Source: Candidatus Kaftiobacterium secundum
GTDB lineage: Bacteria > Sysuimicrobiota > Sysuimicrobiia > Sysuimicrobiales > Kaftiobacteriaceae
Assembly (NCBI GenBank): GCA_031459765.1
Contig: JAVKHY010000002.1
Location: 257,350-321,349 of the forward strand
Direction: 5' to 3'
Length of the DNA stretch: 64,000 bases
Part shown: in pieces, positions 34,393-61,538 of the stretch
How the letters are laid out: each line of letters starts with the position of its first letter
How positions within the stretch are numbered: the stretch's first letter is position 1
Program-made: the position numbers and the translations under genes
Notes under the pieces: model-generated
What the model saw: the letters and a program-made list of their open reading frames with translations, nothing else
Databases searched by the model: none
What the model was told of the DNA's origin: nothing

Positions 34393-34508
34393 GGTCGCCT
34401 CCCGCCGGCTTTCGGTGGCCTTTACCGTCAAATCTACCGTACCGCGGTCGGAGGGACCCCGGTATCGGGCCGCTGCCCTATTTCGCCGTCTTCGGGTATA
34501 GTAACGGC

Positions 34509-40418: not shown

Positions 40419-40678
40419 GCTTCCGCAACCTCCACCTCGACGCTGTCCGGCCCCACGTCGTAGGCGAAGAGCGCCCGGTCCTCGCGGCGGCGGAGGCGGT
40501 AGGTCTCACCCGAGCGCTCACAAGCGTACCGCATCCGAGATTAGCCTACTCTCGGGACGGCAAGCCCTTCATCAGGCCTCCGCCCGATTCGGCACCCCGT
40601 AGCGCCTACATTGGACGTACGGCTCGCTCGTGGGCGATGATCGCGGCCGTCATGCCGGCTCTCTCGGCGCGTCCACCT

Positions 40679-42040
40679 TCACACCGGCTCCTGTTGCACC
40701 GCAGCGGCCCGCCGGGCCCGCACCGTGGCCCAGGCCAGGCGGGCGACTAGGCGCGGGTCGACGGCCCGGAGGAAGATGCTGCGGTACGGCGCGCTGCCGG
40801 AGAACATGTCCCAGAGGACGCCGCTGAGCCGCGGGTCGCGGTCGCGGCCGGTTTGTTCCGCCGCCGTGGTATGGAGGACCGCTCCGCGGAGAAGGCGGAC
40901 GGTCTTCAGCAGCCCGGCGAGGAGGAACATCACCCGGCCGAAGCGGTTGTCCCAGGCGATGGAGCGGTAGACGGGTCCGAAGTGTCGGCGGAACGCCCGG
41001 GCCGAGATCCCATGGAACACCGCCGTCTGCGCGGCGGCCCGTGCGGTGCGGTAGGCGGCGCCGATGCCGTCCTTGTACAGCCTGGTCACACCGCAGTCCC
41101 CTACGAGGACGACCCGGTCGGCGAAGGGCCGGGCGGCCTCCCGCACGTTGATGTTGGGCCGGCAGTGGCAGACGCCTTCGTGGGACGTCCCGGGCGGCAG
41201 CCACCGGGTCACGGCCGGATGGGCGAAGAAGACCCGGATCAGCAGGTGGTCGATGTTGCGGCCGAGCAGGCAGACGGTCACGAAGTCGCCCTTGGGGATG
41301 ATGGCCGCAAACTCCAACCGGGGAATATCGAGGAGAAAGATGTGCATCGCGGCGCCGAAGATGCGCGTCACCGTTTCGAACCCGAGCCGGATCTCCGTGA
41401 TGTAGGCGCGGCTGGTTTCCGCCGGCCGGTGTCGCAGGCCGAGACCCGCGAAGAGCGGCTCGGAGGCCACGTTGACGCCGGTGGCGACGACGATGAGATC
41501 GTAGACCGTCGACGCTCCCCGCACCTGCAGCGACGGCCGTCCCCCCTGCCACCGGGCACCGGTGACGCGGGCGGGGATGACGCGGGCCCCCAGGCGCTGC
41601 GCCTCGGAGAGCAGGAAGCCGTCCAGCCCGCCCCAGCGCAGCACGCTCAGATCGCGCGGCCCGCCCCCGCGGTGGAGGGTCGCAATCCGTGCCTCACGCC
41701 GCGGGGTGCGGATTCTCACCGACCCCTCGTCGGTGTTCAGGACGTAGGCCGCGATGCCGCGCTGCACGACCGTGGCCGGGAGGTCGATCCCTTCCGCCGC
41801 CAAGCCTTGCACCAGCGCCTCGGAGACCACGCCCCCGCACATGTTGCACCCGCGAGGACCGGTCGCCGCGAAGTCTCTGGGTTCGTAGATGTCGACGGCC
41901 AGCCGGAGATTCTGCTGCTCGGCGAAACGGAGGAGGAAATACGCAGACAACGATCCGGCGGGGCCGCCCCCGATAACGGCGACGCGGCTCCCGTCCTGCA
42001 GGCGCATCGGCCCCCGGGCCGGAGGGGCTCTGGCGATCAT
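40679..42040 (-). CDS. FAD-dependent oxidoreductase (geranylgeranyl-reductase-like flavoprotein) with CNMCGG motif
   Basis: Rossmann VAVIGGGPAGS near the N-terminus; GDxG-like VLVGDCGV region. ATG at 42040 has RBS GGGGAGGA. Last gene of the cupredoxin/NrfCD block. Confidence 0.6.
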   Translation of the reverse strand: MIARAPPARGPMRLQDGSRVAVIGGGPAGSLSAYFLLRFAEQQNLRLAVDIYEPRDFAATGPRGCNMCGGVVSEALVQGLAAEGIDLPATVVQRGIAAYVLNTDEGSVRIRTPRREARIATLHRGGGPRDLSVLRWGGLDGFLLSEAQRLGARVIPARVTGARWQGGRPSLQVRGASTVYDLIVVATGVNVASEPLFAGLGLRHRPAETSRAYITEIRLGFETVTRIFGAAMHIFLLDIPRLEFAAIIPKGDFVTVCLLGRNIDHLLIRVFFAHPAVTRWLPPGTSHEGVCHCRPNINVREAARPFADRVVLVGDCGVTRLYKDGIGAAYRTARAAAQTAVFHGISARAFRRHFGPVYRSIAWDNRFGRVMFLLAGLLKTVRLLRGAVLHTTAAEQTGRDRDPRLSGVLWDMFSGSAPYRSIFLRAVDPRLVARLAWATVRARRAAAVQQEPV

Positions 42041-42131
42041 CCCCGGTCCTCCCCTGGGCGATTTCTCAGGCTCTTCTCGACCAGCTCGAAGGGCCCTGCC
42101 ATCGCGCCGCAGGGGCGCCCCGTTCCCCCTG

Positions 42132-42665
42132 CTACGACGCCCGGCGAATGCCCATGAGCAATGCGACCAGGTAGGCGTACGTCGTCCAGATTCCGCCGAG
42201 CAGCACAGCAACGACCAGAATCTGGACAGGGGGATAGGGACTGATGAACCCCGGTTGCGGGCTCATCCCGCGAAGCACATCCAGTCCGGGGCGTCGCTGC
42301 GGATCCCGCACTCTGGGCGAGAGGAGCTGGAGGCCGGCCTGGAGGGTCGCGCTCTCGCCGGCGACCGCCCGCACCTCGGTGTAGCGCGGCGGGTCGTTCA
42401 GCGTGACGGACGCCGTCCCGGCGGCGTCCGCCTCCACCTCTGCCAGCTCCAGCCATCCGAAGGCCGTCCGGGCCAGGAACGTCACCGCCGTCCCGCCGGC
42501 GGGCGCTCCCGCGTCGTCCTGCACGGTAGCCACGACGCGCGTCGAGCCGTCGGCGCGGACCTCCTTGAGCAGTGAGATCCTGGCCGGCTCCGCCCCGTCC
42601 GCGGCGGAGGCGCCGCCCGCGACGAGCAACAGGCCCAGGACCGCGAGGCTACGGAACAGGCGCAT
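42132..42665 (-). CDS. exported protein with C-terminal membrane anchor, unknown function
   Basis: Signal peptide, Ala/Gly-rich ~120-aa domain, terminal TM (ILVVAVLLGGIWTTYAYLVALLMGI). Overlaps the 3' end of the nrfD-like gene by 17 nt. Confidence 0.35.
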   Translation of the reverse strand: MRLFRSLAVLGLLLVAGGASAADGAEPARISLLKEVRADGSTRVVATVQDDAGAPAGGTAVTFLARTAFGWLELAEVEADAAGTASVTLNDPPRYTEVRAVAGESATLQAGLQLLSPRVRDPQRRPGLDVLRGMSPQPGFISPYPPVQILVVAVLLGGIWTTYAYLVALLMGIRRAS

Positions 42666-44217
42666 GCGCCACCTCTCCGGCACTGGCCTCAGTCCCCCGC
42701 TCTTCCCGCGTCTCCCAGATCGAGACGATCGGGAACAGTTTGCTGAACAGGATGTAAATGAGTGCAAAGCCCGCCAGGGCCGCCGCCGTGATCGACCACT
42801 CCACCCACGTCGGCCGGTAGACCGCCCAGCCCACTGGAGCACGCCGGATCGGTAAGAACGGATACTGAAGGGTGGGCACGATGATGACGAAGCGCTTCAG
42901 CCAGGCTCCGACGTTGACCAGGAGCGAGGCCACGACCGCGGCCGCGATCGGGCGCGCTCGGAAAAACGGCAGCAGCGCGACAAAGAGCCAGATGCCAGCG
43001 GCGGTCAACACCCACGGCAGCAGCGCACGCAGGGCGGCGACGTCGCCCAGGGCCGCGGCGGGCGACCCCGAGGACGAGACGAAGACGCGCAGGCCGAGGG
43101 TGGCGGCCAGCGCGGCCAGCGCCGGTCTGGGCTGAAGCAGGGGGGCGCTCTGCAGGCGCGGCACCCAGGAGATCGTCGGCAGTGTGAGGAGCAGCACGGG
43201 GACCAGCAGTCCGCCGATCTGTGTAAACCAGAAGATGCGCGCATAGGGCCCGCTGACCACCGCGCTCAGGTAGCCGCGCTCGTGTGTCGCCAGTTTGTAC
43301 AGCGGCGTCCAGTACTCGTTGAAGGTGAAGTAGGCGTAGATCAGGCCCAGCGCGATAAGAAGATAGCCCATCCGCTTGAAGTGGCGCACCGTAATGTAGT
43401 CCTCCAGATGGTACGCCCACCGGAAGGCGGCCATCGCGGTGATCACGGCGGCTGCGCCGCTGAACAAGGCCCCCGAGACGAAGTACGGCCCGAAGATCGT
43501 ACTGTTCCATCCCGCGCGCAGCGTCATCGCCATGATCCAGGACACCACCGTGTGCACCGAGATCGCCACGGGGATGATCAGCACCGCCAGCACGCCGATG
43601 ATCGTTTCCAACTGGTGCTTCTGCCCGGGCGTCCCGCGCCACCCTAGGGCCAGGATCGTGTACAATCGCCGCCGCCACGCCGGCCCCCGCGCATAGTGCT
43701 CCCGCAGCAGCGCGATGTCCGGGATCATGGGCACGTACAGGAACAGCGTGCTGCCGGTCAGGTACGTCGTGATCGACATGATGTCCCACAGGATGGGCGA
43801 CTGCAGCCGGCCGTGCAGGAGGAGATTCAGGATGCGGTCCGGCCGCCCCATGTCCACGAAGGGCATCAGCGCTCCCATCAGCAGCGAGGCGAAGGTAATC
43901 GCCTCGGCCATCCGCGTGATCGGCCGCCGCCACTCCGCCCCGGTGAGGCGCAGGATGGCGGACATCAGCGCACCGACGTGGCTGACGCCGATGAAAAAGA
44001 CGAAGTTGGTGATGTAGACGCCCCACATGAAATTGTCGCGCAGCCCGGTCACGCCCAGCCCGTAACGCAGCTGCACGCCGTAGGCGATGAGCCCCCAGAG
44101 GATGATGGCCACGAGCCCGCCGACCAGCGCGTAGTAGCGCGGGCCGGTCGCCTGCAGCGAGTCGAGCAGGCGCTGCTCGCGAGGTGCGAACGCCTGACGG
44201 CGGCGCCCGTCGATCAC
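42649..44217 (-). CDS. NrfD/PsrC-family polytopic membrane subunit (quinol-interacting), ~12 TM
   Basis: 522 aa with ~12 hydrophobic helices typical of NrfD/PsrC/ActC-type quinol oxidoreductase subunits. GTG start overlaps the stop of the FeS gene (GTGA). Confidence 0.7.
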   Translation of the reverse strand: MIDGRRRQAFAPREQRLLDSLQATGPRYYALVGGLVAIILWGLIAYGVQLRYGLGVTGLRDNFMWGVYITNFVFFIGVSHVGALMSAILRLTGAEWRRPITRMAEAITFASLLMGALMPFVDMGRPDRILNLLLHGRLQSPILWDIMSITTYLTGSTLFLYVPMIPDIALLREHYARGPAWRRRLYTILALGWRGTPGQKHQLETIIGVLAVLIIPVAISVHTVVSWIMAMTLRAGWNSTIFGPYFVSGALFSGAAAVITAMAAFRWAYHLEDYITVRHFKRMGYLLIALGLIYAYFTFNEYWTPLYKLATHERGYLSAVVSGPYARIFWFTQIGGLLVPVLLLTLPTISWVPRLQSAPLLQPRPALAALAATLGLRVFVSSSGSPAAALGDVAALRALLPWVLTAAGIWLFVALLPFFRARPIAAAVVASLLVNVGAWLKRFVIIVPTLQYPFLPIRRAPVGWAVYRPTWVEWSITAAALAGFALIYILFSKLFPIVSIWETREERGTEASAGEVAHAPVP

Positions 44218-45146
44218 GGGTGGACCCCCCTGGTCGCCGGCTGCGGCTCATCCGGCGGCGCCGGATAGACCCGCTTGCGCGGCGGCAGGTAGTATACGCG
44301 CGGCTCGGTGCCCAGCTCTTCCAGGAACCGATAACCGGCGTTCTGGCGGATCAGCTCGGAAAACCGCACCGTCTCCCCCTGGGAGTTGGTTACGGCATCC
44401 TCCTCCTGGTCGCCGAAGTAGATGGCGCCCATCGGACAGGCCGCCACACAGGCCGGCAGCCTTCCCTCTTTGACGAGCCCCGGACAGAAGATGCACTTCT
44501 CGGTGGTGCCCTTGCGGTGGCGTTGGTTCCATTCGTCGGAGTACGGGAGGCTCTGCTGCGCCTCGGTCTCGGGCGGCTGGACCCAGTTGAAACTCCGTGC
44601 CCCGTACGGACAGGCGGCGATGCAGAAGCGGCAGCCGATGCAGCGCGAGGTGTCCTGCATCACGATCCCGTCCTCGCGCTTCCAGGCCGCGCTGACCGGA
44701 CAGACCTTGACGCACGGCGCGTTGTCGCACTGCATGCAGGGCCGGGGAAACCAGTACGGGGCGGCGACCTCATTGTCCCGCAGCTCGTAGACGCGGATCC
44801 ACTCCTGCCCGGCGGGGGTGAAGTGCATCCCCTGGCAGGCACGGGTGCACTCCCGGCACCCGTCGCACCTGGCGAGGTCGATAACCATCACCCACCGCCG
44901 CCCCGGGATGCCCGGCCCCGTGGGCTGCGGGGGCGATGCGGCGTAGGCCACCGCTGCCGCCCCGGCCCCGCCGGTCAGACCGTTCAGCTCGACCAGCGTG
45001 CGGTCCACCGTGGGCGCGGCGACGAGCGCGGGCACCGGCGACCTTCGGCCAAGGGGCAGGCGGCGGAGGAAGCGGCCGCCGCCCAGCGGGACGAGGGTCG
45101 CGGCGCCCGCCGCCAGCGTCCGCAGGAAGGTCCGCCGGGTGAGCAT
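44214..45146 (-). CDS. TAT-exported 4Fe-4S cluster protein, NrfC/PsrB/ActB-like
   Basis: Twin-arginine signal MLTRRTFLRTLAAGAATLVP. Four ferredoxin-type Cys motifs (CDGCRECTRAC, CMQCDNAPC, CIGCRFCIAACP, CIFCPG...CVAACP). No CxxCH. Confidence 0.75.
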   Translation of the reverse strand: MLTRRTFLRTLAAGAATLVPLGGGRFLRRLPLGRRSPVPALVAAPTVDRTLVELNGLTGGAGAAAVAYAASPPQPTGPGIPGRRWVMVIDLARCDGCRECTRACQGMHFTPAGQEWIRVYELRDNEVAAPYWFPRPCMQCDNAPCVKVCPVSAAWKREDGIVMQDTSRCIGCRFCIAACPYGARSFNWVQPPETEAQQSLPYSDEWNQRHRKGTTEKCIFCPGLVKEGRLPACVAACPMGAIYFGDQEEDAVTNSQGETVRFSELIRQNAGYRFLEELGTEPRVYYLPPRKRVYPAPPDEPQPATRGVHP

Positions 45147-45150
45147 GGGC

Positions 45151-45600
45151 TCACCGGCCGGGCAGGACGACGAACTGCCCGATCTGATCGGGATGATCCC
45201 GGGCGCATCCGGCCAGAGTGCACGCATAGTGGTAGATGCCGGGCCGGGCGGCCACAAACCGCAGCGTAACGGTCTCCCCCGGCGCGATGGTCGGAACGGC
45301 GACGTTCAACGCCCCCAGACCGAAGCCGTGGGAATCCTCCTCGTCGGTGTTGGTGACCCGCAGGATGACGGTGTCGCCGGCGTTGACGACAATCACATCG
45401 GGTATCCAGTGGTGGACTTTCCGCTCGCCCGCCTCGAAGGAGTGCAGGTAGAGGCCGACCTGCCGGACCTCGGGCGTGACCGGCGCCGTGGCCGAGACCG
45501 GAGGCACGTAAATCTGGAAGACGACATACGCGCCCCCGATGGCCAGCAGCGCGGCGAGCAGGACCGCCCCGAAGATCGTCCATCCGCCGCTATTCATCAC
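45151..45600 (-). CDS. membrane-anchored CuA-like cupredoxin (paralog A; axial Gln variant)
   Basis: N-terminal TM, cupredoxin strands (IPDVIVVNAGDTVILRVTN), upstream His (SHGF), then C-x4-C-x3-H-x2-Q (CTLAGCARDHPDQ). Confidence 0.5.
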   Translation of the reverse strand: MMNSGGWTIFGAVLLAALLAIGGAYVVFQIYVPPVSATAPVTPEVRQVGLYLHSFEAGERKVHHWIPDVIVVNAGDTVILRVTNTDEEDSHGFGLGALNVAVPTIAPGETVTLRFVAARPGIYHYACTLAGCARDHPDQIGQFVVLPGR

Positions 45601-46073
45601 TTCACCACGACCACGCCCTTCATGCCCTGCTCGTAGTGGCCTTCCACCATGCAGCCCATCTCAAAGGTGCCGGTGCGCCTGGGGGTGAACGTCAGCTCGG
45701 CCGACCGGCCGGGGCCGACCTCCACCTCGAAGATCTCCTCCCCTTCGACGGCAATGCCGCCACCTTCCACCTCGACCTCAACCCCCTTGAAGTACGAGTG
45801 CTCCTCCGCCCAGGCGTGCATCTCGCTCTCGTCCATCTTGCCCGCGGGCGTGTCGTAAACCATGAACTCGTGCTTGACCTTGCCCTTGTTGAGGAGCGTA
45901 ATCTGCGTCTTGGTCCCGGCCTGCAGCGTGACCCTGGCGGGAGTGAAGCTCATCTCGCGCAGGGTGATGGTCAGCTTCTGCGCCTTCGCCGCGCCCAGCG
46001 CGCTGCCCACCGGCAGCGTCGCCAGAAGCACGGTCACCGCCAGGAGACCCGTCCACCACCGCATCGTCCTCAC
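45597..46073 (-). CDS. secreted type-1 cupredoxin (paralog of the gene at 30084-30482)
   Basis: Signal peptide, His (KHEF), then C-x4-H-x4-M (CMVEGHYEQGM). C-terminal region aligns with the nosZ-adjacent cupredoxin (TFEMGCMVEGHYEQGMKGVVVVK vs TIFCKVAGHKEAGMHIQLVVK). Confidence 0.65.
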   Translation of the reverse strand: MRTMRWWTGLLAVTVLLATLPVGSALGAAKAQKLTITLREMSFTPARVTLQAGTKTQITLLNKGKVKHEFMVYDTPAGKMDESEMHAWAEEHSYFKGVEVEVEGGGIAVEGEEIFEVEVGPGRSAELTFTPRRTGTFEMGCMVEGHYEQGMKGVVVVK

Positions 46074-46225
46074 CTCCGCTCGTCGTCACACCACCCCCAG
46101 GGTACGATCCGGGCGGACGCCGCGACAACGCACCGGCGGGTAGTCTTGGCGGGGCCGCACCTACCCGTCCGGGTAGGCGGAGACGGGCGGGCAGAACGTT
46201 GGCCAGCTCCAAAGACGCGCCGCGG

Positions 46226-46867
46226 TCAGCCGGGATCCTCCGGCAGCAACCCCCGGCGCGCCGCGTAGGCGATGACCTCGGCGCGGCTGCGGAGGTGGAG
46301 CTTGTCCAGGATGTTCTTCATGTGGAACTTGACGGTGTTCTCCGAAATGTGCAGGGCCGCGGCCACCTCGCGGTTGCTGGCCCCCCGGCTCACGGCCTGC
46401 AGCACCTCGCGCTCCCGGTCGGTCAGCGCCTCCGGAGGTGGCGCCTGCGGCTGCTGTCCGGCGAACTCCTCGAGGATCCGCGCGGCGAGGGTGCGGGTGA
46501 TCGGCGCCTCCCCGCGCTCCACCCCGCTCAACAGGTCGAAGAACTCCCCGGCCCGGAGGTTCTTGAGCAGGTAGCCCTGTGCTCCGCTCTTGATCGCTTC
46601 GAACACCATCCGGTCTTCATCGGAAACGGTGAGCATGACGATCTTGATTTGCGGGGCCTGGGCCTTGATCAGCCGCGTTGCCTCGAGGCCGCTCATGCGT
46701 GGCATGGCGATGTCCATGAGCACGACATCCGGGCGCAGGCGCAGCGCCGCCTCCACCGCCTGCAGGCCGTCGCCGGCCTCGCCCACGACCTCCACTCCCC
46801 GCGTGGCCAGCAGGCTGCGCACCCCGTCGCGGAAGAGGGCGTGATCGTCAACCAGCAGCACGCGCAC
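46226..46867 (-). CDS. NarL/FixJ-family response regulator (REC + LuxR HTH)
   Basis: MRVLLVDDH...DVVLMDIAMP receiver and C-terminal LTDREREVL...NISENTVKFH LuxR-type HTH. Confidence 0.85.
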   Translation of the reverse strand: MRVLLVDDHALFRDGVRSLLATRGVEVVGEAGDGLQAVEAALRLRPDVVLMDIAMPRMSGLEATRLIKAQAPQIKIVMLTVSDEDRMVFEAIKSGAQGYLLKNLRAGEFFDLLSGVERGEAPITRTLAARILEEFAGQQPQAPPPEALTDREREVLQAVSRGASNREVAAALHISENTVKFHMKNILDKLHLRSRAEVIAYAARRGLLPEDPG

Positions 46868-48626
46868 GCCGGCCCTCCTCCATTCCCGGGAGCACCACCT
46901 CGACGACGGTGCCTCCGCCAGCTCGGACGCCGACGGTCATCGTGCCGCCGATGGCTTCCGCCCGCTCCCGCATCGTCTGCAAGCCGAACCCTGCGGTCGG
47001 GGGCGCGGCCTTCCCGCCAATCCCCACGCCGTCGTCTTCCACGGCGACCACAATCGCCCCGCCCCGCGCCGCCAGCCGGACCACCGCGTGGCGCGCTGCG
47101 GCGTGCTTGCGGACGTTGGTCAACGCCTCCTGGACGATGCGAATGAGGTGGACTTCCGTCGTGGGCGGGAATTCGACCTCGTCGATCTCGACGACGAGCC
47201 GGGTGTCGACGCCGCTGAGCTCGGTGAACCGCCGGGTGTAATCGGCCAGGACCGGAATCAGGCGGCGATCCGGCCCCGTGGTGGTGCGCAGGCTCAGGAT
47301 GGCTTCCCGCAGGTCGGCGTAGACCGAGCGCGCAGCCAGCTCCAGCTCCTCCAGGTGGGCCAGGGCCTCCGGGATCTGGCCCTGGCTCACCAGCGCATGG
47401 ACCGCCTGCACCTTGGTGTTTACGTAGCCCAGCACCTGCCCGACGCTGTCGTGCATCTCCCGGGCAATACGCTCCCGTTCCTCCACCATGGCCACGGATC
47501 GCAGGCGCTCCTGCAGACGGGCGTTCTCCTCCAGGGAGCGGAGCAGCCGGAGGCGCATCGTCTCGAAGCTCTGGCCGAGCGCGCCGAGCTCGTCCCCCCG
47601 ACGCACCTCGATGCGCTGCGCCAGATCGCCTGCGGCGATACGCTCCGCCCCCCGCTGCAGGAGCCGCAGCGGGGCCACCACCGCTCCGGTGTCGAGCCAG
47701 GCGAAGAGCAGGGCCACGGCGAGCACGACGACCTCAAAGAGGAGGACGCGGTCGCGCAGACGCCAGAGCGGGCCAAAGGTTTCGGCCTCACTCTGTCCGA
47801 TCCCAAGCCCCCACGGCGCCGACGCCAGGGGCGCAAAGGCCATGAGGTGAAGGGGACTGCGGCCCTTCGGCTCACGCCGCTCCTCGCTCGCCCCCACCAG
47901 CGGCCGGCCCTCGGCGATCAAGCGGGCAAAAAAGTCGGGATGCTCGTTCCGGGAGAACACCTCATCAGGGTCGGTCCCGGCAAGTACGATGCCGTCCGGG
48001 CCCACGAGGACGGCATGGCCGGTTTCCCCGATGGGCAATCCCCTGATAAACGTGAACAGCGCCGGTGTGGTGAGGTCGATCGCCCCGAGCAATGCTCCGG
48101 CGATCCACTGCGGACCGTCGAAGACTGGCACGGCGAAGAAGACCACAGGCCTGCCGTCGGCCCGCCGGATGAGGCTGCTCGCCTGCGGCCGGCCCGAAGT
48201 CAGCACCTGCTGCAGCAGGGGGGAGCGCGCCAGAGGCTCGAACAGGACCGCCTCCTCCGGTTCGGCGACCCGGATCTTCGATCCTCGATCGAGGTAGGCG
48301 ATCCCCCCGGAGAACAGCGGCATCTGCAGGTAGGAGACCGCCAGCTCGCGCCGGAGGGCCCGGAAGTCGGACCGCGCCAGGTGCGGGCTGAGGCGCGCGC
48401 TCAACCCGTTCAGGGACCGCCAGCCCTGGGCCAGTTCCTGATCGATGTGTTCGGCGGTGGTGCGCGCCATGACCAGGCGTTCGGCCAGCACCCGGTCGGT
48501 CGCGGCCCGCACCATCGCCAGACCCATCACCCCCAGCGGGGCGGTGGCGACGAGCACCCCCAGCGCCACGAGGAGCATGATGCGGTTGCGCAATCCCACC
48601 GCGACCACCACCCTCGCAGACATCAT
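46848..48626 (-). CDS. sensor histidine kinase (periplasmic Cache-like domain, HAMP, HisKA_3, HATPase)
   Basis: Two TM segments flanking a ~270-aa periplasmic domain. HAMP (IAAGDLAQRIEV), HisKA_3 H-box (REMHDSVGQ), and a C-terminal HATPase region with the conserved catalytic Asn and Gly-rich motifs. 20-nt overlap with the response regulator. Confidence 0.8.
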   Translation of the reverse strand: MMSARVVVAVGLRNRIMLLVALGVLVATAPLGVMGLAMVRAATDRVLAERLVMARTTAEHIDQELAQGWRSLNGLSARLSPHLARSDFRALRRELAVSYLQMPLFSGGIAYLDRGSKIRVAEPEEAVLFEPLARSPLLQQVLTSGRPQASSLIRRADGRPVVFFAVPVFDGPQWIAGALLGAIDLTTPALFTFIRGLPIGETGHAVLVGPDGIVLAGTDPDEVFSRNEHPDFFARLIAEGRPLVGASEERREPKGRSPLHLMAFAPLASAPWGLGIGQSEAETFGPLWRLRDRVLLFEVVVLAVALLFAWLDTGAVVAPLRLLQRGAERIAAGDLAQRIEVRRGDELGALGQSFETMRLRLLRSLEENARLQERLRSVAMVEERERIAREMHDSVGQVLGYVNTKVQAVHALVSQGQIPEALAHLEELELAARSVYADLREAILSLRTTTGPDRRLIPVLADYTRRFTELSGVDTRLVVEIDEVEFPPTTEVHLIRIVQEALTNVRKHAAARHAVVRLAARGGAIVVAVEDDGVGIGGKAAPPTAGFGLQTMRERAEAIGGTMTVGVRAGGGTVVEVVLPGMEEGRRARAAG

Positions 48627-49076
48627 CTAGCGCGGCGGCGCGTCGAGGACGACCAGGTGCCCGATCATTCGCTCATGGTCCGGCGAGCAGGACCCGGCGG
48701 CCGGGTCGTAGGGCAGATAGCACCGGTATTCGAAGATCCCCGCGCGGTCCGCGCGGAAGGTCACCTCATCCACGTCCCCGCCGGCCAGGACCTTCGTGCG
48801 GACGTTGAGGCCCCTGAACTCGATGGCGTGGCTGAACAGAGACTGGTTCATCACGCGCAGGCGGACCGTGTCGCCCCGGCGCACGACGAGCATCTGGGGA
48901 TCATAGAGGTGGCTGGTGGCCGGGCCGCCGATGCCCCCCTGCCCGGTGATGAGCATCGCCAGGTCGATGGTCGGGGCGCCGGAGGGGCGCCGTTCCGCCG
49001 GGCGAAGCGCGAACAGACCGACCGCGATCGCCGCCGCCGACACCATCGTCGCCGTCCACGCGACCATCTTGCTCAT
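48627..49076 (-). CDS. membrane-anchored CuA-like cupredoxin (paralog B)
   Basis: N-terminal TM; upstream His (SHAIEF); C-x10-C-x3-H-x2-M (CYLPYDPAAGSCSPDHERM), i.e. the CuA ligand set with an expanded Cys-Cys loop. Abuts the histidine kinase start with zero gap. Confidence 0.5.
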   Translation of the reverse strand: MSKMVAWTATMVSAAAIAVGLFALRPAERRPSGAPTIDLAMLITGQGGIGGPATSHLYDPQMLVVRRGDTVRLRVMNQSLFSHAIEFRGLNVRTKVLAGGDVDEVTFRADRAGIFEYRCYLPYDPAAGSCSPDHERMIGHLVVLDAPPR

Positions 49077-49080
49077 CCCG

Positions 49081-49518
49081 TCACTCCGTGACGAGGAGAT
49101 AGCCGCGCATCAGATCGTGATCGGGCGTGCAGTCGCCCGTGGCGGGGTTGTGGGGCAGTGCGCACCGGAAGAGAAACACCCCCGTCCGGTCGGCGACGAA
49201 ACGCAGAGACCGGCTGCTGCCCGGCCTGAGTTTCCCGGTCCTGAGGTTGTACCCCGTCAGTTCGAAGTCGTGGTTGTACCTGTCGGGGTTGCCGACGGCG
49301 AGATCGACGGTGTCCCCGCGGCGCACGACGAGCATCGTCGGGTACCAGCGGTGGGCGGCCACCCCCTGCCCCGAGAAGGTGGCGACAACCATGGACAGGG
49401 TCAGCGTGGCGGGGGGCCGGGGGCCGACCGCCTCGGGCGGACCCTGTCCCCGTCCGGCCAGGGCCGCCACACTGACGACCAGCGCCAGGACGCTCAGGAC
49501 GAGGGCGATCCGCTCCAT
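49081..49518 (-). CDS. membrane-anchored CuA-like cupredoxin (paralog C)
   Basis: Collinear with paralog B (MLVVRRGDTVxL...FRxDRxG(I/V)F(E/L)(Y/F)RC.LP..PA.G.C.PDH..M). First gene of the block. Confidence 0.5.
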   Translation of the reverse strand: MERIALVLSVLALVVSVAALAGRGQGPPEAVGPRPPATLTLSMVVATFSGQGVAAHRWYPTMLVVRRGDTVDLAVGNPDRYNHDFELTGYNLRTGKLRPGSSRSLRFVADRTGVFLFRCALPHNPATGDCTPDHDLMRGYLLVTE

Positions 49519-49768
49519 GGACGCCGCCTCCCCTTGTAGGAATTACTCTACGCGCGCTCTGCGCGCATCGACTATAGGGTGTGGAACGGATTCGACGCCC
49601 GGCCGGAGCCCGAGGACAAGATGCCGCCGCAGCCCGATAGCCCCCGGATCATCCGGACCATAGGCTGGCAGTGGACCAAGGAAACGCAGCGTTCAGAGTG
49701 AACACGCTGTGTACAGGGTGAACACCGCGGGCGAGACGACCGCCCGGACCCAAAGGAGGGGAGCACAA

Positions 49769-50356
49769 ATGGCGAAGGTAGAGTCGGCGCTGGTCGAGGT
49801 CTACAGCGACCCGCCCTTCGCACGGACCCTGTTCAGCACCACCCGGTTCGCCTGGCTGTGGGCGGCCGTCCGGATCTGGCTCGGCTGGCAGTGGATCGAG
49901 GCCGCCCGGCACAAGGTCGGGGTGGAGGCCTGGACGGGCACCGGCATGGCCCTGAAGGGATTCTGGGAGCGGGCGATCCAGGTGCCGCCGCCTCCGGCAC
50001 GGCCGCCGATCGCCTTCGACTGGTACCGCACCTTCATCCAGTACCTGCTGGACACGCAGTCCTACACCTGGTTCGCCAAGCTGGTGGCCTACGGGGAGCT
50101 GGCCGTCGGCATCGCCCTCATCGTCGGCGCCTTCGTGGGCATCGCCGCCTTCTTCGGCGCCTTCATGAACTGGAACTTCATGATGGCGGGAACGGCCAGC
50201 ACCAACCCGCTGCTCTTCACGGCCGCGATGCTGCTGATCCTGTCCTGGAAGGTCGCGGGGCACTACGGGCTCGACCGGGTGCTCCTGCCGCTCCTGGGCA
50301 CGCCCTGGAGGCCGGGGAAGGCGTTCATCGGTCGCACCGCTTCCGCCGCATCCTAG
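49769..50356 (+). CDS. DoxX-family membrane protein (TQO small-subunit DoxD-like)
   Basis: ATG with strong RBS AAAGGAGGGGA. ~195 aa, 4 hydrophobic helices, DoxX-like WLWAAVRIWLGWQWIEA N-terminus. Divergent from the cupredoxin block. Confidence 0.45.
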   Translation: MAKVESALVEVYSDPPFARTLFSTTRFAWLWAAVRIWLGWQWIEAARHKVGVEAWTGTGMALKGFWERAIQVPPPPARPPIAFDWYRTFIQYLLDTQSYTWFAKLVAYGELAVGIALIVGAFVGIAAFFGAFMNWNFMMAGTASTNPLLFTAAMLLILSWKVAGHYGLDRVLLPLLGTPWRPGKAFIGRTASAAS

Positions 50357-59409: not shown

Positions 59410-60860
59410 GAGGCCACATCCTTTCCGTAGTAGCGCACGATGCTCTCGACGAACTCCCCCAGCCCGATTCCGTGGCCGCACAGGCTGGTCTGGCGCAGCG
59501 CCGGGACGATCGCCTCGAACTCGGCACGCGCCGCCGCCGGCAGGCGGCCCTGCATCCCCTCTGCCAGCATGCGCTCCACCGCGGCGGAGCCCACCCGGCA
59601 GGGCGTGCACTTGCCGCAGGACTCAAAGGCCGCGAAGCGGAAGACGTGGTGGACGAGCTCCAGGATCGAGGTGTGGCCGTCGAAGGCCACCACGCCCCCG
59701 TGCCCCACGGCCGCGCCGGCCGCCCGCAGTTCCTCGAAGCCGAAGGGCGTGTCGAACTGCTCCGGCGGGAGCACCCCGGCCAGCGGGCCGCCGATGATGA
59801 CGCCGCGGACCGGCCCGGTCGTCAACCCGCCCCCCAGTTCCTCGACGATGTGGCGCACCGAGACCCCGAACTCGATTTCGTACAGTCCCGGCCGCCGGAA
59901 CAGGGAGTTGAGCGAGACGACCTTCGTGCCGCGGCTGCGCGAGAATCCCAGGCGCCGATAGGCCTCGGGGCCGTGGCGGACGATCCAGGGGATGCTGGCC
60001 AGCGTCTCCACGTTGTTGACGAGCGTGGGACGGCCAAAGAGACCGGAGGTGGCGGGATAGGGCGGACGCGTGCGGACTTCCGGCCGTTTCCCCTCGATCG
60101 CGTTCAGCAGGGCCGTCTCTTCCCCGCAGACGTAGCTCCCCTGGCCGAGGACGAGCTCCACCTCGAAGGAGAACGGCGAGCCCAGAATCCGGTCCCCGAG
60201 CAGCCCGGCGCGCCGCGCCTCGTCGAGCGCCCTGACGAGAACTTCGCGGGCCTGAGGATATTCCTTGCGCAGGTAGATGTAGCCCCGACGCGCGCCGGTG
60301 GCGTGCCCGGCGATGGTCATCGCTTCGATCAGGCAGAAGGGATCCTCCTCGAGGATGAACCGGTCGATATAGGCGCCCGGATCGCCCTCATCGGCGTTGG
60401 CCACGACGTACTTGACGGACCCGGGCTCCGCCGCGACGGCACGCCACTTCCTTCCCGTCGGAAAGCCGGCGCCGCCGCGGCCGCGCAGGTCCGCGCGTTC
60501 CACCGCCTGCACCACCTCCACGGGAGGCTGTCGCAGCGCCGCCTCCAGCGCGGCGTAGCCGCCCCCGGCGGTGTAGGAGGCCAGCGTCGTCGCCCCGCCC
60601 TCGACGAGGCGCTCCAGGACAATCGTCTGCGGGGCCCGGGCTTCGATCCGCGGCCGCAGGCTGTCCTCGTTCGCGGCGGGGGCCAGGTAGCACTTGCCCA
60701 GGCAATAGACCCGTGCGATCCCGGAGGTGGCCGCGGCCCACCGGGCGGCATTGAGGTGCCGGGCCACGAAACAGGCCGTGCCCTGGCAGGCCCGACCGTC
60801 GAGCGAGAGGTCTCGCAGGTGATAGAAGGACTCGACGGGCCGGCGGGCGCCGCGGCTCAC
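59391..60860 (-). CDS. fdsB: formate dehydrogenase beta subunit (NuoF-like, FMN/NAD-binding) with fused NuoE-like 2Fe-2S N-terminus
   Basis: GRGGAGFPTG FMN site, 4Fe-4S CGKCTPCR motif. N-terminal CQGTAC...CLGKC thioredoxin-like 2Fe-2S region. GTG overlaps the stop of the upstream gene (GTGA). Confidence 0.8.
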   Translation of the reverse strand: MSRGARRPVESFYHLRDLSLDGRACQGTACFVARHLNAARWAAATSGIARVYCLGKCYLAPAANEDSLRPRIEARAPQTIVLERLVEGGATTLASYTAGGGYAALEAALRQPPVEVVQAVERADLRGRGGAGFPTGRKWRAVAAEPGSVKYVVANADEGDPGAYIDRFILEEDPFCLIEAMTIAGHATGARRGYIYLRKEYPQAREVLVRALDEARRAGLLGDRILGSPFSFEVELVLGQGSYVCGEETALLNAIEGKRPEVRTRPPYPATSGLFGRPTLVNNVETLASIPWIVRHGPEAYRRLGFSRSRGTKVVSLNSLFRRPGLYEIEFGVSVRHIVEELGGGLTTGPVRGVIIGGPLAGVLPPEQFDTPFGFEELRAAGAAVGHGGVVAFDGHTSILELVHHVFRFAAFESCGKCTPCRVGSAAVERMLAEGMQGRLPAAARAEFEAIVPALRQTSLCGHGIGLGEFVESIVRYYGKDVASWFGSR

Positions 60861-61438
60861 GCGATCTCCTCGTGGTAGTAGGTGTCCCCGGCGCAGGCCC
60901 GGCACAGGATCCGACCGTTTACGACGACTTCACGCCCGTTGATGACCTCCTCTTCGCACCCCGCGCATGTCACCCGTGCGCTGGCCCGGCCGAGGAGGTC
61001 GTCCAGCGCGACCGTGAGGGCCACCGGTCGTACCGTGAGTAACTCCTCCACCGGCAGGCGCTGGTAGGCGTCCAGTTGAGCGTGCCAGCCGCTGCGCGCC
61101 CCCGGCGACACCTCCAGGGCCCGCTGGCGGATCTGCGGGCGCGGGGCGGCGCGCACCGCCCGCCGGGTGCGCAGATCGACCACCGTCGCCGCCACCCGGC
61201 CGAGGTCTACCAGGCGCATCGTCCGATGGCCGAGGGTGCAGCCGGTCGCCGCCGCGATCCCGTCCGCGAAGCAGCCGTCGGTCTCCACGAAGACATACAG
61301 GCGCCGGCGCGGCGGCGGCAGTGACACCCCCAGCGCCTCTGCCGCGGCCAGCCCGATCCGCGCGCCGAGCACCTGACGGGGGCAGAGGTGCCGATGTTGG
61401 GAGGCCGACCGAGCGAGGATCTCCTGTAACAGTGCCAT
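60857..61438 (-). CDS. FmdE-family protein (FwdE-like, putative FDH accessory/Zn-ribbon)
   Basis: HLCPRQVLGARIG motif (FmdE HxCPGxxLGxRxG) and C-terminal CAGC...CRAC zinc ribbon. 193 aa; the long ORF-table extension to 62194 is rejected. Confidence 0.7.
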   Translation of the reverse strand: MALLQEILARSASQHRHLCPRQVLGARIGLAAAEALGVSLPPPRRRLYVFVETDGCFADGIAAATGCTLGHRTMRLVDLGRVAATVVDLRTRRAVRAAPRPQIRQRALEVSPGARSGWHAQLDAYQRLPVEELLTVRPVALTVALDDLLGRASARVTCAGCEEEVINGREVVVNGRILCRACAGDTYYHEEIA

Positions 61439-61538
61439 GGTGCTCACCCCGTATTGCGGACTTTCCTCTCGACGGCACGGCCTCCTCTCCCGGGCTGCCA
61501 GGGGACGGCCCCGGACTGCTACAATGGCTGGTGCAGCT

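What the first reader, a model, noticed from the sequence alone, without database searches (positions are those of the whole stretch)
48627..49518. Tandem paralogous membrane-anchored cupredoxins with a CuA-type ligand set but an expanded Cys-Cys loop (H...C-x10-C-x3-H-x2-M)
Both proteins (149 and 145 aa) have one N-terminal TM helix, a cupredoxin beta-sandwich, and ligands H(~80)...C-x10-C-x3-H-x2-M. The C-terminal Cx3Hx2M matches CuA sites of COX subunit II and of NosZ itself (in-window FYCTEFCSALHLEM). The His-to-first-Cys spacing (~37) also matches CuA. Canonical CuA has Cx3C, so the 10-residue insertion, conserved as PYDPAAGS/PHNPATGD, implies an unusual binuclear site or a mononuclear site with a spare Cys. 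They are the first genes of the operon and directly abut the histidine kinase gene.
Basis: seen in the sequence. Interest (0 to 1): 0.75.

Follow-up and report, generated by a model that had tools for sequence, protein, structure and literature searches.

The report
Paired CuA-like copper proteins, stretched loop
Two adjacent small membrane-anchored copper-protein genes are stand-alone relatives of the two-copper "CuA" electron-entry domain of nitrous-oxide reductase, with seven extra residues between the two copper-bridging cysteines. They belong to an undescribed, conserved gene set that looks like a haem-free, copper-wired version of the respiratory "alternative complex III".

Summary
ORFs 49081..49518 (A, 145 aa) and 48627..49076 (B, 149 aa), both on the minus strand, are 42% identical paralogues. 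Each has an N-terminal helix, a confidently modelled cupredoxin domain and H83-x35-C119-x10-C130-x3-H134-x2-M137.

New here: they are homologues of the CuA domain of the NosZ in this window. A is 40% identical over 87 aa, with one 7-residue gap exactly between the two Cys, and all five CuA ligands align. The motif is kept in 120/120 database homologues and in every complete orthologue in the related loci, all from uncultured Armatimonadota/CSP1-3 bacteria.

The A-B pair is always adjacent. It usually heads a module: A, B, a type-1 cupredoxin, a third CuA-like paralogue (C-x4-C-x3-H-x2-Q), an ActB-like Fe-S protein, an ActC-like quinol subunit and an Ig-like anchor. The module has no haem-c motif and often lies next to aa3 oxidase, NirK-like or NosZ genes.

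Best reading (inferred, about 0.55): A and B are binuclear CuA-type electron carriers in a haem-free ACIII-like chain. NosZ lies 18.5 kb away in a separate unit. The adjacent kinase/regulator most likely controls the module through a conserved palindrome. No metal data exist, and I found no paper describing this.

The parts
49081..49518 (-). Protein A (145 aa): N-terminal membrane helix, Pro/Ala-rich linker, and a cupredoxin domain with H83...C119-x10-C130-x3-H134-x2-M137.
   Evidence: ORF and sequence. Homology to the NosZ CuA domain: 40% identity over 87 aa, E 1e-13, ligands aligned. AF2 pLDDT 94.3. 19/19 orthologues keep the motif.
48627..49076 (-). Protein B (149 aa): paralogue of A (42% identity) with the same architecture and ligand set. 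Its start lies 4 nt after A's stop.
   Evidence: Pfam Cupredoxin_1 32.5 bits, above the cutoff of 27. AF2 pLDDT 90.9. 120/120 homologues keep the motif.
46848..48626 (-). Sensor histidine kinase (dCache_1-HAMP-HisKA_3-HATPase_c). Its ATG directly abuts B's stop codon.
   Evidence: Pfam and sequence. Orthologues at 50-60% identity lie next to the cupredoxin genes in most related loci.
46226..46867 (-). NarL/LuxR-type response regulator. It overlaps the kinase gene by 20 nt.
   Evidence: Pfam Response_reg + GerE. Orthologues at 72-82% identity are found in related loci.
46162..46175 (.). Palindrome TACCCGTCCGGGTA (NarL-like 7-2-7 inverted repeat) in the 152-nt gap between the regulator gene and the type-1 cupredoxin gene. 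Probable operator.
   Evidence: Single hit in the window against 0.02 expected by chance. One hit in each of nine fetched loci, which reduce to seven distinct ones because L001/L002 and L012/L013 are duplicate pairs. Each hit lies just upstream of the first gene of the cupredoxin/NrfCD operon (with 22).
45597..46073 (-). Secreted type-1 cupredoxin (158 aa; H...C-x4-H-x4-M, signal peptide). Candidate soluble carrier.
   Evidence: Pfam Cupredoxin_1 52 bits and Copper-bind 30.6 bits. Conserved directly after B, or after the regulator, in related loci.
45151..45600 (-). Protein C (149 aa): third membrane-anchored CuA-like paralogue with H...C-x4-C-x3-H-x2-Q.
   Evidence: 37% identical to the NosZ CuA domain, E 3e-15. 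Best NCBIfam match is the clade II NosZ C-terminus, 54.7 bits. 9/9 orthologues keep C-x4-C-x3-H-x2-Q.
44214..45146 (-). TAT-exported four-cluster Fe-S protein (NrfC/PsrB/ActB-C-terminal type). Its likely start, MLTRRTFLR, lies 4 nt after C's stop.
   Evidence: Pfam Fer4_11 and TAT_signal. PDB hits are ArrB, PsrB and the ActB C-terminal domain, E 1e-21 to 1e-33.
42649..44217 (-). NrfD-family integral membrane subunit, ActC-like (522 aa). Presumed quinol site and proton channel.
   Evidence: Pfam NrfD. The only PDB matches are the four ActC subunits of alternative complex III, E 1e-56 to 3e-58.
42132..42665 (-). Small subunit with a signal peptide, an Ig-like (Big_1/CarboxypepD_reg-like) domain and a C-terminal membrane helix. 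It overlaps the NrfD-like gene by 17 nt.
   Evidence: Weak Pfam Big_1 match. Conserved as the gene after NrfD in L001, L003, L008, L009, L011 and L015.
28081..30057 (-). Clade II NosZ (658 aa) with canonical CuA (FYCTEFCSALHLEM). It serves as the reference homologue and is a candidate electron acceptor. It lies in a separate unit with Rrf2, NosD, NosF, NosY and a YtkA-like gene.

Best explanation
A and B are stand-alone, membrane-anchored CuA-type cupredoxins that face the periplasm (the outer side of the membrane). They derive from the same stock as the CuA domain of nitrous-oxide reductase and cytochrome oxidase subunit II. A conserved 7-residue hairpin (P-[YH]-[DN]-P-A-x-G) has been inserted between the two bridging cysteines.

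I propose that each binds a binuclear, CuA-like copper centre through H83, C119, C130, H134 and M137. I also propose that the co-inherited A-B pair works as a fixed electron relay.

Together with the third CuA-like paralogue C and a secreted type-1 cupredoxin, they would replace the c-type cytochromes ActA and ActE of alternative complex III. Quinol would be oxidised at the ActC-like subunit. Electrons would pass through the four Fe-S clusters of the ActB-like protein and along the copper centres. They would then reach the CuA sites of aa3 oxidase and NosZ, and NirK.

The neighbouring dCache kinase and NarL-type regulator would control the module through a conserved palindrome.

Shown: the gene structure, fold, homology, ligand conservation, synteny and absence of haem-c motifs. 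Inferred: copper nuclearity, complex formation, direction of electron flow and regulation.
For: Homology to CuA:
- A aligns to the NosZ CuA domain of this window at 40% identity over 87 aa (E 1e-13). B aligns at 33% (E 2e-9) and C at 37% (E 3e-15). The only sizeable gap falls between the two Cys, and H, C, C, H and M all align. The type-1 cupredoxin in the same cluster shows no such similarity (E 0.3).
- The best NCBIfam match of A and C is the last ~85 positions of the clade II NosZ model.

Structure:
- Models have pLDDT 91-94, including the loop (blocks 121-140 score 93-96). Residues 124 and 129 form a beta-bridge, so the insertion is a hairpin whose base brings C130 back towards C119. H134-136 form a helical turn.

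Ligand conservation:
- H56, H83, C119, C130, D133 and H134 are invariant across A, B and C types.
- Among 149 further representatives returned by a profile search of 1.84 billion cluster representatives, two-Cys members always have C-x3-H-x2-(M/Q/I/L/V), with Cys-Cys spacings of 3, 4, 9-13, 15 or 16. One-Cys members instead have type-1 loops such as C-x4-H-x4-M. No member has the C-x3-H-x2-M spacing with only one Cys.

Context:
- A and B are adjacent in all 12 distinct related loci, and their trees are congruent.
- Eight of those loci place A-B beside a NrfC/NrfD pair (L001, L008, L009, L010, L011, L012, L015 in full; L005 is cut off after gene C). The genes are tightly spaced or overlapping.
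- The NrfD-like protein matches only ActC in the PDB (E about 1e-57). ActA is likewise held by one N-terminal helix (PMC5928083).
- No CxxCH motif occurs in any cluster protein. The adjacent aa3-type COX2 in L003 has CuA but no haem c, so it needs an external periplasmic donor.
- A-B sit next to COX (L003/9/11/14), a NirK-like oxidase (L014), and a Nxr-like enzyme plus NosZ (L016).
- The nos cluster in this window carries no electron-donor genes of its own.
- Related tandem-CuA proteins include one fused to a cytochrome c domain.
Against: - No natural or engineered CuA site with ten residues between the cysteines is known to me. The coordinates of the models could not be inspected here, so the Cys-Cys distance is unknown.
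- The top fold hit is nitrosocyanin, a mononuclear red copper protein. B's best profile hits are nitrosocyanin and type-1 domains of NirK.
- C130-x3-H134-x2-M137 on its own resembles a type-1 loop.
- A and B do not reach Pfam's COX2 threshold.
- Of the three charged quinol-site residues of R. marinus ActC, only D169 is kept. H139 becomes D and D253 becomes I.
- The module lacks the ActB1 domain, ActA, ActE and, in this window, ActF.
- In this window A and B are co-transcribed with the kinase/regulator, not with the NrfCD genes. L007, L014 and L016 have A-B without an adjacent NrfCD.
- Archaeal homologues carry Met-rich linkers typical of Cu(I) handling. The type-1 cupredoxin's best NCBIfam hit is the copper-resistance protein CopI.
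Confidence: 0.55

Rival explanations
1. A and B are mononuclear copper proteins (type-1, green or red) that use only one of the two cysteines. The other cysteine is spare, redox-active, or forms a disulfide that staples the long loop. The likely ligand sets are H83, C130, H134, M137, or H83, C119, H134, M137. Their role as electron carriers would be unchanged.
For: - C130-x3-H134-x2-M137 lies within the range of type-1 ligand loops.
- The closest folds and B's best profile matches are nitrosocyanin and the type-1 domains of NirK.
- The stretch C-x-[LIV]-P after C119 resembles the type-1 loop C-S-V-P-G-H of single-Cys relatives.
- PmoD shows that two conserved cysteines in a cupredoxin can form an intramolecular disulfide in vitro (PMC6189053).
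Against: - Both Cys, both His and the axial residue always occur together. No relative keeps C-x3-H-x2-M with a single Cys, and one-Cys relatives use a different loop (C-x4-H-x4-M).
- C119 sits at the canonical Cys position and C130 aligns with the second CuA Cys of NosZ.
- Spacings of 3 and 4 residues occur in the same profile family, grading into canonical CuA. Some of those members pass Pfam's COX2 cutoff.
Confidence: 0.2
2. A and B are copper-trafficking proteins. They would act as chaperones or Cu(I) buffers that metallate the CuA and CuZ sites of the neighbouring oxidase, NirK and NosZ, or they would protect against copper. This is analogous to the membrane-anchored cupredoxin chaperone CupA of Streptococcus pneumoniae, to PCuAC, or to CopI.
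For: - Nitrosopumilus homologues join the same C-x10-C domain to a linker that is 20-25% Met, a hallmark of Cu(I)-binding proteins.
- The adjacent type-1 cupredoxin's best NCBIfam hit is CopI.
- A-B lie next to genes for several copper enzymes.
Against: - There is no sequence similarity to CupA in the PDB searches.
- The ligand set is that of a buried redox centre, including the N-terminal His on a beta-strand. It is not a CxMxM or Met-rich Cu(I) site.
- Tight coupling to a TAT-exported Fe-S protein and an ActC-like quinol subunit has no place in a chaperone pathway.
- The CSP1-3 proteins have Pro/Ala-rich linkers, not Met-rich ones.
- The kinase is a dCache/NarL-type system, not a CusS/CopS type.
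Confidence: 0.12
3. A and B are accessory sensors of the abutting histidine kinase. Their copper centre would report the periplasmic redox state, O2, NO/N2O or copper, and modulate kinase activity through membrane-helix contacts.
For: - B's stop abuts the kinase start, and the A-B-HK-RR order recurs in L005, L006 and L012/13.
- A kinase/regulator pair of this type accompanies the pair in most loci.
- L012 has two A-B pairs, one next to HK-RR and one next to NrfCD.
Against: - In seven other loci A-B are separated from HK-RR and instead head, or in L015 follow, the NrfCD operon.
- HK-adjacent pairs do not form a clade of their own. The two L012 pairs are each other's close relatives, so gene order follows lineage rather than function.
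- The kinase has its own periplasmic dCache sensor domain.
- The conserved palindrome places the regulator upstream of the cupredoxin/NrfCD operon as an ordinary transcriptional controller.
- L016, L014 and L007 have A-B with no such kinase nearby.
Confidence: 0.08

Closest known systems
CuA domain of nitrous-oxide reductase (NosZ) and of cytochrome c oxidase subunit II
   Same: - Cupredoxin fold, superposing at 1.3-1.7 A on N2OR CuA domains.
- The same five side-chain ligands in the same order: His on the strand, Cys, Cys, His, Met.
- Identical C-x3-H-x2-M tail and the following M-x-G-[YH]-L-x-V strand.
- 33-40% identity to the NosZ CuA domain in this window.
- Like COX2, an N-terminal membrane anchor.
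   Different: - Ten residues, not three, between the cysteines. The insertion is a conserved P-[YH]-[DN]-P-A-x-G hairpin.
- H-x35-C instead of H-x34-C.
- An invariant Asp before the second His.
- Stand-alone proteins of about 145 aa that are not attached to a catalytic subunit.
- Below Pfam's COX2 threshold.
- Occur as a co-inherited tandem pair, with a third paralogue (C-x4-C, Gln instead of Met).
Alternative complex III (ActABCDEF), the quinol:cytochrome c/auracyanin oxidoreductase
   Same: - An ActC-like NrfD subunit. ActC chains are its only PDB matches (E about 1e-57), and most proton-channel residues are kept.
- A TAT-exported four-cluster Fe-S partner like the ActB C-terminal domain.
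- Periplasmic redox subunits held by single N-terminal helices, as ActA is.
- Gene clusters adjacent to an aa3-type oxidase.
- In Chloroflexi, ACIII reduces a blue copper protein (PMC5928083; PMC10873879, abstract listed).
   Different: - No ActA or ActE (no CxxCH motif anywhere).
- No molybdopterin-like ActB1 domain.
- No ActD, and no ActF in this window.
- Three CuA-like cupredoxins and one type-1 cupredoxin in place of six haems.
- Two of the three charged quinol-site residues are changed.
Nitrosocyanin (red copper protein of Nitrosomonas europaea)
   Same: - H83 aligns with its Glu60 ligand and C119 with its Cys95.
   Different: - Nitrosocyanin is soluble, has a single Cys and a short C-x2-H-x4-H loop, and binds one copper.
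- A and B score 24-32 bits against a family cutoff of 143.
PmoD/AmoD of methane and ammonia oxidisers
   Same: A small membrane-anchored cupredoxin with two conserved cysteines. It forms a CuA-type centre outside the classical enzymes and is encoded beside copper enzymes (PMC6189053).
   Different: - PmoD lacks the Hx34Cx3Cx3Hx2M ligands.
- It builds its CuA across a homodimer from Cys41, Met49 and His51 near the N-terminus.
- It is anchored by a C-terminal helix.
- A and B keep all canonical ligands within one domain.
- No sequence relationship was seen here.
Streptococcus pneumoniae CupA copper chaperone
   Different: - Different ligand motif (Cys plus C-x-M-x-M, from my own knowledge).
- Cu(I) trafficking to a P-type ATPase rather than redox function.
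- No detectable sequence similarity.
- A different gene neighbourhood.

Membership tests
CuA-type cupredoxin domain (COX subunit II / NosZ C-terminal domain) | Cupredoxin beta-sandwich that superposes on known CuA domains. | tested here: met
   [not shown]
CuA-type cupredoxin domain (COX subunit II / NosZ C-terminal domain) | Ligands His...Cys...Cys...His...Met in this order, at homologous positions. | tested here: met
   Residue-by-residue alignment with the NosZ of this window. The ligands are invariant in 120 homologues and in all complete orthologues.
CuA-type cupredoxin domain (COX subunit II / NosZ C-terminal domain) | Canonical spacing Hx34Cx3Cx3Hx2M. | tested here: not met
   The spacing is Hx35Cx10Cx3Hx2M. 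Only the C-x3-H-x2-M tail is canonical (motif from PMC6189053).
CuA-type cupredoxin domain (COX subunit II / NosZ C-terminal domain) | Score above the curated family cutoff (Pfam PF00116 COX2; NCBIfam NosZ/CoxB models). | tested here: not met
   No COX2 hit for A or B at E <= 0.1. TIGR04246 scores 34 and 20 bits against a whole-enzyme cutoff of 625.
CuA-type cupredoxin domain (COX subunit II / NosZ C-terminal domain) | Binds two copper ions as a mixed-valence Cu(1.5)-Cu(1.5) centre bridged by both thiolates. | not testable with these tools
   This needs metal analysis, UV-vis/EPR or a structure. Model coordinates could not be read out here.
Type-1 blue copper proteins (plastocyanin/azurin family, PF00127) | A single Cys ligand followed by a short C-x(2-4)-H-x(2-4)-M loop, with a score above the family cutoff. 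| tested here: not met
   There are two invariant Cys. The Cys at the canonical position (C119) is 14 residues from the His. PF00127 scores 15.4 bits against a cutoff of 21.2 for B and gives no hit for A. C130-x3-H-x2-M alone would fit, so a type-1-like site is not chemically excluded.
Pfam Cupredoxin_1 (PF13473) | Score at or above the gathering threshold (27 bits). | tested here: inconclusive
   B scores 32.5 bits (met). A scores 20.3 bits (not met). C scores 30.9 bits.
Nitrosocyanin (TIGR03096) | Cys-His-His-Glu ligand set and the family cutoff. | tested here: not met
   32.3 and 24.4 bits against a cutoff of 142.85. The Glu60 position is His. The alignment ends just after the Cys, so the loop that would carry the two His ligands has no counterpart.
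Alternative complex III (for the surrounding module) | ActC-type NrfD subunit plus a four-cluster Fe-S subunit. | tested here: met
   ActC chains 6btm_C, 6lod_C, 8k9e_C and 6f0k_C are the only PDB matches (E 1e-56 to 3e-58). The ActB C-terminal domain matches at E 1e-16 to 1e-23.
Alternative complex III (for the surrounding module) | Multihaem ActA and monohaem ActE cytochromes c. | tested here: not met
   No CxxCH motif in any protein of the cluster, in this window or in L003.
Alternative complex III (for the surrounding module) | ActB with an N-terminal molybdopterin-like domain, and a second NrfD-like subunit ActF. | tested here: not met
   The Fe-S protein is only about 310-347 aa, against 933-1039 aa for ActB. 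There is one NrfD-like gene in this window. A second NrfC/NrfD pair occurs only in L008.
Alternative complex III (for the surrounding module) | Conserved quinol-site residues His139, Asp169 and Asp253 (R. marinus ActC numbering). | tested here: inconclusive
   D169 is kept (D145). H139 becomes D122 and D253 becomes I228. Channel residues H97, S103, R114, R119, E122, T125, S245 and H247 are kept.
CupA-type Cu(I) chaperone (S. pneumoniae) | Sequence relationship and the Cys...C-x-M-x-M ligand motif. | tested here: not met
   [not shown]

The most novel reading that the evidence does not exclude
A, B and C are natural CuA-type binuclear centres with stretched Cys-Cys loops. Strung together on single membrane helices, they form a copper 'wire' that replaces the six c-type haems of alternative complex III. 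This would give a haem-c-free, possibly proton-pumping quinol oxidoreductase that feeds aa3 oxidase, NirK and NosZ through a blue copper protein. In effect it would be an all-copper/iron-sulfur periplasmic respiratory chain in bacteria. The same stretched-loop domain in cultured ammonia-oxidising archaea would be part of their copper-based electron transport.
Probability: 0.3. Interest if true: 0.85.

Novelty: new variant of a known kind. Interest (0 to 1): 0.7.

Why it matters
CuA is known in nature from only a few contexts: haem-copper oxidases, N2O reductase, some NO reductases and PmoD. Almost all have the invariant C-x3-C spacing. A conserved natural family with 4 to 16 residues between the bridging cysteines would do two things. 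It would test how much the Cu2S2 core tolerates, a question so far approached mainly by protein engineering. It would also add stand-alone CuA proteins to the list of electron carriers.

At the system level, the gene set suggests how a widespread soil and hot-spring phylum (CSP1-3/Sysuimicrobiota) connects its quinol pool to oxygen, nitrite and N2O reduction without c-type cytochromes in this module. That bears on who consumes N2O in deep soils.

The domain also occurs in cultured Nitrosopumilus strains, so the chemistry can be tested directly.

Tried and rejected
- Same operon as NosZ: rejected. NosZ is 18.5 kb away, behind hyp genes, ArsR/Nramp/Usp genes and its own Rrf2 regulator.
- A distinct 'sensor-type' subclade of kinase-adjacent A-B pairs: rejected. 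Neighbour-joining trees follow lineage, not gene order.
- Sigma-70 promoter and intrinsic terminator scan of 40500..50000: uninformative. It found 0 promoters, and the terminator-like hits lie inside genes.
- Shared operator between the region upstream of A and the regulator/T1 gap: only a trivial 9-mer is shared. The conserved palindrome is absent upstream of A in this window.
- Foldseek against AFDB50: the library was not available.
- Literature: 'cupredoxin + NrfD + NrfC + quinol' gave 0 papers, and 'Nitrosopumilus + cupredoxin + methionine-rich' gave 0. Searches on CuA-like/two-cysteine cupredoxins and on ACIII + cupredoxin found nothing describing this family or module. The two CSP1-3 genome papers and the NrfD-family review do not mention it.
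- Names attached to 20 clusters of wider-family members: only generic labels such as plastocyanin, COX subunit 2, cupredoxin domain-containing or hypothetical.
- Reading Cys-Cys distances from the AF2 models: not possible, because coordinates are not exposed.
- A fused A-linker-B model to test for a heterodimer: not attempted.
Full report
**What is there.** On the minus strand, ORF A (49081..49518, 145 aa) and ORF B (48627..49076, 149 aa) are separated by 4 nt. Each has a plausible Shine-Dalgarno sequence. They are 42% identical (E 4e-32). Both contain C-x10-C-x3-H-x2-M, at 49108..49164 and 48666..48722. By coincidence both share one numbering: H56, H83, C119, C130, D133, H134, M137. B's TAG is directly followed by the ATG of a histidine kinase with dCache_1, HAMP, HisKA_3 and HATPase_c domains (46848..48626). 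That gene overlaps a NarL-type response regulator (46226..46867). I call the proteins A, B and C in this report. My notebook calls them CupA, CupB and CupC, but they are unrelated to the Streptococcus chaperone named CupA.

**Homology to CuA.** This is the decisive new result. A tblastn of the window's proteins against related loci showed by accident that the C-terminal domain of the window's own NosZ hits these proteins. Direct comparison gave the following:
- A against NosZ: 40% identity over 87 aa, E 1e-13.
- B against NosZ: 33% identity, E 2e-9.
- A third paralogue C (45151..45600): 37% identity, E 3e-15.

In the A alignment the only sizeable gap is 7 residues long and lies exactly between the two cysteines. 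H83, C119, C130, H134 and M137 align one-to-one with the NosZ CuA ligands, and so does the following M-x-G-Y-L-x-V strand. The type-1 cupredoxin of the same cluster shows no such similarity (E 0.3). In NCBIfam, the best match of A and C is the last ~85 positions of the clade II NosZ model. B's best match is nitrosocyanin, with NosZ second. None reaches a family cutoff. The canonical CuA motif is Hx34Cx3Cx3Hx2M (PMC6189053). Here it is Hx35Cx10Cx3Hx2M.

**Conservation.** A search of 5.8 billion clustered proteins found 162 relatives of B, and the best 120 were listed. All 120 keep C-x10-C-x3-H-x2-X (M in 117), and 119 have exactly two Cys. The named ones are all from uncultured Armatimonadota or unclassified 'bacterium' MAGs, and one is 100% identical to B. 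Across A, B and C types the invariant residues are H56, P60, G68, D69, N77, H83, G100, G113, C119, C130, D133, H134, G139 and V143.

A profile search of 1.84 billion representatives returned 3879 proteins at E <= 0.001. I examined 149 of the best 150 (the remaining one was already in the first set):
- Members with two Cys always have C-x3-H-x2-(M/Q/I/L/V). Their Cys-Cys spacings are 3 (canonical), 4, 9, 10 (the commonest, 42 proteins), 11, 12, 13, 15 or 16.
- Members with one Cys have ordinary type-1 loops such as C-S-V-P-G-H-K-E-A-G-M.
- No protein has the CuA-type tail with only one Cys.

Some canonical-spacing members pass Pfam's COX2 cutoff. They occur as two or three CuA domains per chain, and one is fused to a cytochrome c domain. 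The bare regular expression also matched an unrelated FmdE-like ORF at 61217..61273. The pattern alone therefore proves nothing. What counts is its conservation inside a CuA-homologous cupredoxin.

**Gene neighbourhood.** Seventeen related loci were fetched, about 12 of them distinct. All come from CSP1-3/Armatimonadota-type MAGs. A and B are adjacent, in that order, in every one. Neighbour-joining trees of A and of B are congruent, so the pair is inherited as a unit.

The commonest arrangement is A, B, type-1 cupredoxin, C, NrfC-like, NrfD-like, Ig-like anchor. It occurs in L001, L008, L003/4/9 and L011. In L015 the same genes are present but A-B follow the module. In L010 and L012b A-B are followed directly by a second type of NrfC/NrfD pair.

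In this window, and in L005 and L006, the kinase and regulator genes sit between B and the type-1 cupredoxin gene (L006 ends within the kinase gene). In L012a they sit between the first A-B pair and a second A-B pair. Downstream in the window lie:
- the type-1 cupredoxin (45597..46073);
- C (45151..45600, H...C-x4-C-x3-H-x2-Q, kept in 9/9 orthologues);
- a TAT-exported four-cluster Fe-S protein (44214..45146);
- a 522-aa NrfD-family protein (42649..44217);
- an Ig-like protein with a C-terminal helix (42132..42665).

These genes overlap or lie 4 nt apart.

The NrfD-like protein matches only the ActC subunits of alternative complex III in the PDB (E 1e-56 to 3e-58). The Fe-S protein matches ArrB, PsrB and the C-terminal domain of ActB. 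No cluster protein has a CxxCH haem-c motif.

Other neighbours of the A-B pair:
- In L003/4/9 an aa3-type oxidase operon directly precedes A, and the gene spacing suggests the same for L011. In L014 a COX1/COX2 pair lies upstream on the opposite strand. The L003 COX2 has CuA (CAELCGLGHHLM) but no haem c, so it needs an external periplasmic donor.
- In L014 a NirK-like multicopper protein lies nearby.
- In L016 A-B follow a Nxr/pNar-type molybdoenzyme and precede Rrf2-NosZ-NosL.

The window's own nos cluster (Rrf2, NosZ, NosD, NosF, NosY, YtkA-like; about 24000..31000) carries no electron-donor genes. It is a separate unit 18.5 kb from A and B.

**Regulation.** A palindrome, TACCCGTCCGGGTA (46162..46175), lies in the 152-nt gap between the regulator gene and the type-1 cupredoxin gene. 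It is the only match in the window, against 0.02 expected by chance. The same TACCY-N4-RGGTA element occurs exactly once in nine of the fetched loci: L001, L002, L005, L008, L010, L011, L012, L013 and L015. These reduce to seven distinct loci because L001/L002 and L012/L013 are duplicates. In each it lies just upstream of the first gene of the cupredoxin/NrfCD operon, whichever gene that is. From my own knowledge it resembles a NarL-type 7-2-7 site. This makes the kinase/regulator an ordinary controller of the module. Together with the tree result and the kinase's own dCache domain, it argues against A and B being kinase co-sensors.

**Most likely mechanism.** Homology, fold, conserved ligands, synteny and the lack of haem c are shown. 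The rest is inferred. I propose that A, B and C each carry a CuA-like binuclear centre and are tethered by single helices beside the ActB/ActC-like pair, as the pentahaem ActA is in ACIII (PMC5928083). Quinol oxidised at the ActC-like subunit would send electrons through the Fe-S clusters, along the copper centres and on to the secreted type-1 cupredoxin. From there they would reach the CuA sites of the oxidase and NosZ, and NirK. The hairpin inserted in the ligand loop is invariant in length within the CSP1-3 proteins and rich in Pro and Gly. It could be a docking surface or could tune the site. The nearly invariant Asp/Asn at position +5 after C119 occupies the place of the type-1 His ligand and might supply the weak axial oxygen ligand. 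That last point is speculation.

**Cautions.**
- No CuA with this spacing has been characterised, and I could not read the Cys-Cys distance from the models.
- Nitrosocyanin and the type-1 domains of NirK are equally good or better fold and profile matches for B.
- Only one of the three charged quinol-site residues of ActC is kept: D169 is retained, H139 becomes D and D253 becomes I. Most proton-channel residues are retained.
- The module lacks ActA, ActE, ActD, the ActB1 domain and, in this window, ActF. It works like ACIII at most and is not a member.
- Copper trafficking remains a real rival. Homologues in Nitrosopumilus, including the genome-sequenced strain Ca. Nitrosopumilus sp. SW and Ca. 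N. sediminis, join the same C-x10-C-x3-H-x2-M domain (114 of 118 homologues) to a linker that is 20-25% methionine. The type-1 cupredoxin's best NCBIfam hit is CopI. The fold also resembles the S. pneumoniae CupA chaperone.

**Novelty.** I found no description of this family or of a cupredoxin-linked ActBC-type module. I checked the searchable literature, the two CSP1-3 genome papers and the NrfD-family review. Database names are generic. I rate it a new variant of a known kind: a CuA-type cupredoxin with a stretched ligand loop, set in an ACIII-like module wired with copper instead of haem. Interest is 0.7. The finding is real, conserved, widespread and testable in cultured archaea, but the key chemical claim (two coppers) and the respiratory role are still inferences.

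Noticed in passing
window 46162..46175: Palindrome TACCCGTCCGGGTA lies between the NarL-type regulator gene and the type-1 cupredoxin gene. It is the only match in the window (0.02 expected). One copy occurs in each of nine fetched loci (seven distinct), always just upstream of the cupredoxin/NrfCD operon. It is a probable operator of the neighbouring response regulator.
   Followed up: yes
window 45151..45600 (-): A third membrane-anchored CuA-like paralogue (149 aa) has H...C-x4-C-x3-H-x2-Q: one extra residue between the cysteines and Gln in place of the axial Met. It is 37% identical to the NosZ CuA domain, and the motif is kept in 9/9 orthologues.
   Followed up: partly
window 42649..44217 (-): The NrfD-family protein's only PDB relatives are ActC subunits of alternative complex III. 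Of the ActC quinol-site residues H139/D169/D253, only the Asp169 equivalent is kept (H becomes D122, D becomes I228). The proton-channel residues are mostly conserved.
   Followed up: partly
window 61217..61273 (-), within ORF 60857..62194: The same C-x10-C-x3-H-x2-M spacing (CFADGIAAATGCTLGHRTM) occurs by coincidence in a protein that looks FmdE-like by eye and is not a cupredoxin. It shows that the bare motif is not specific.
   Followed up: yes
window about 24000..31000 (-): The nos cluster (Rrf2 regulator 30520..30972, clade II NosZ 28081..30057, NosD, ABC ATPase, ABC-2 permease, YtkA/FixH-like protein) contains no nosR, nosGH or cytochrome genes for electron supply.
   Followed up: partly
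L018 8001..8837 (Ca. Nitrosopumilus sp. SW, CP035425.1); proteins P0137, P0348, P0352: Ammonia-oxidising archaea, including genome-sequenced strains, encode a membrane-anchored protein with a linker that is 20-25% methionine and a C-terminal domain carrying the same C-x10-C-x3-H-x2-M motif (114 of 118 homologues). It is annotated only as hypothetical or cupredoxin domain-containing.
   Followed up: partly
proteins P0146, P0197, P0140, P0160, P0203 (profile search hits): Metagenomic proteins carry two or three canonical CuA motifs (for example CTVYCGPGHYEM) in tandem cupredoxin domains. Some pass Pfam's COX2 cutoff. One is fused to a cytochrome c domain and one to a CarboxypepD_reg Ig-like domain.
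   Followed up: partly
L016 1302..14509: In Ca. Fervidifonticultor secundus the A-B pair lies directly after a type II DMSO-reductase-family enzyme (1231-aa molybdopterin subunit, Fe-S subunit, EB_dh haem-b subunit). It lies before radical-SAM, Rrf2, NosZ and NosL genes, with no NrfCD nearby.
   Followed up: partly
window 45597..46073 (-): The secreted type-1 cupredoxin has a Met/His/Glu-containing insertion. Its best NCBIfam match is the copper-resistance protein CopI (64 bits, far below the cutoff of 280).
   Followed up: no
window 31542..34431 (-) and L014 13550..16468: An ArsR-type regulator, an Nramp transporter and a tandem-Usp protein form a conserved trio near the cupredoxin genes, both in this window and in L014.
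   Followed up: no
window 49519..49708: The region upstream of A has lower G+C (64%). It contains a TATAGT element about 55 nt before the ATG and a GCGCGCAGAGCGCGC palindrome. It lacks the TACCY-N4-RGGTA element.
   Followed up: no
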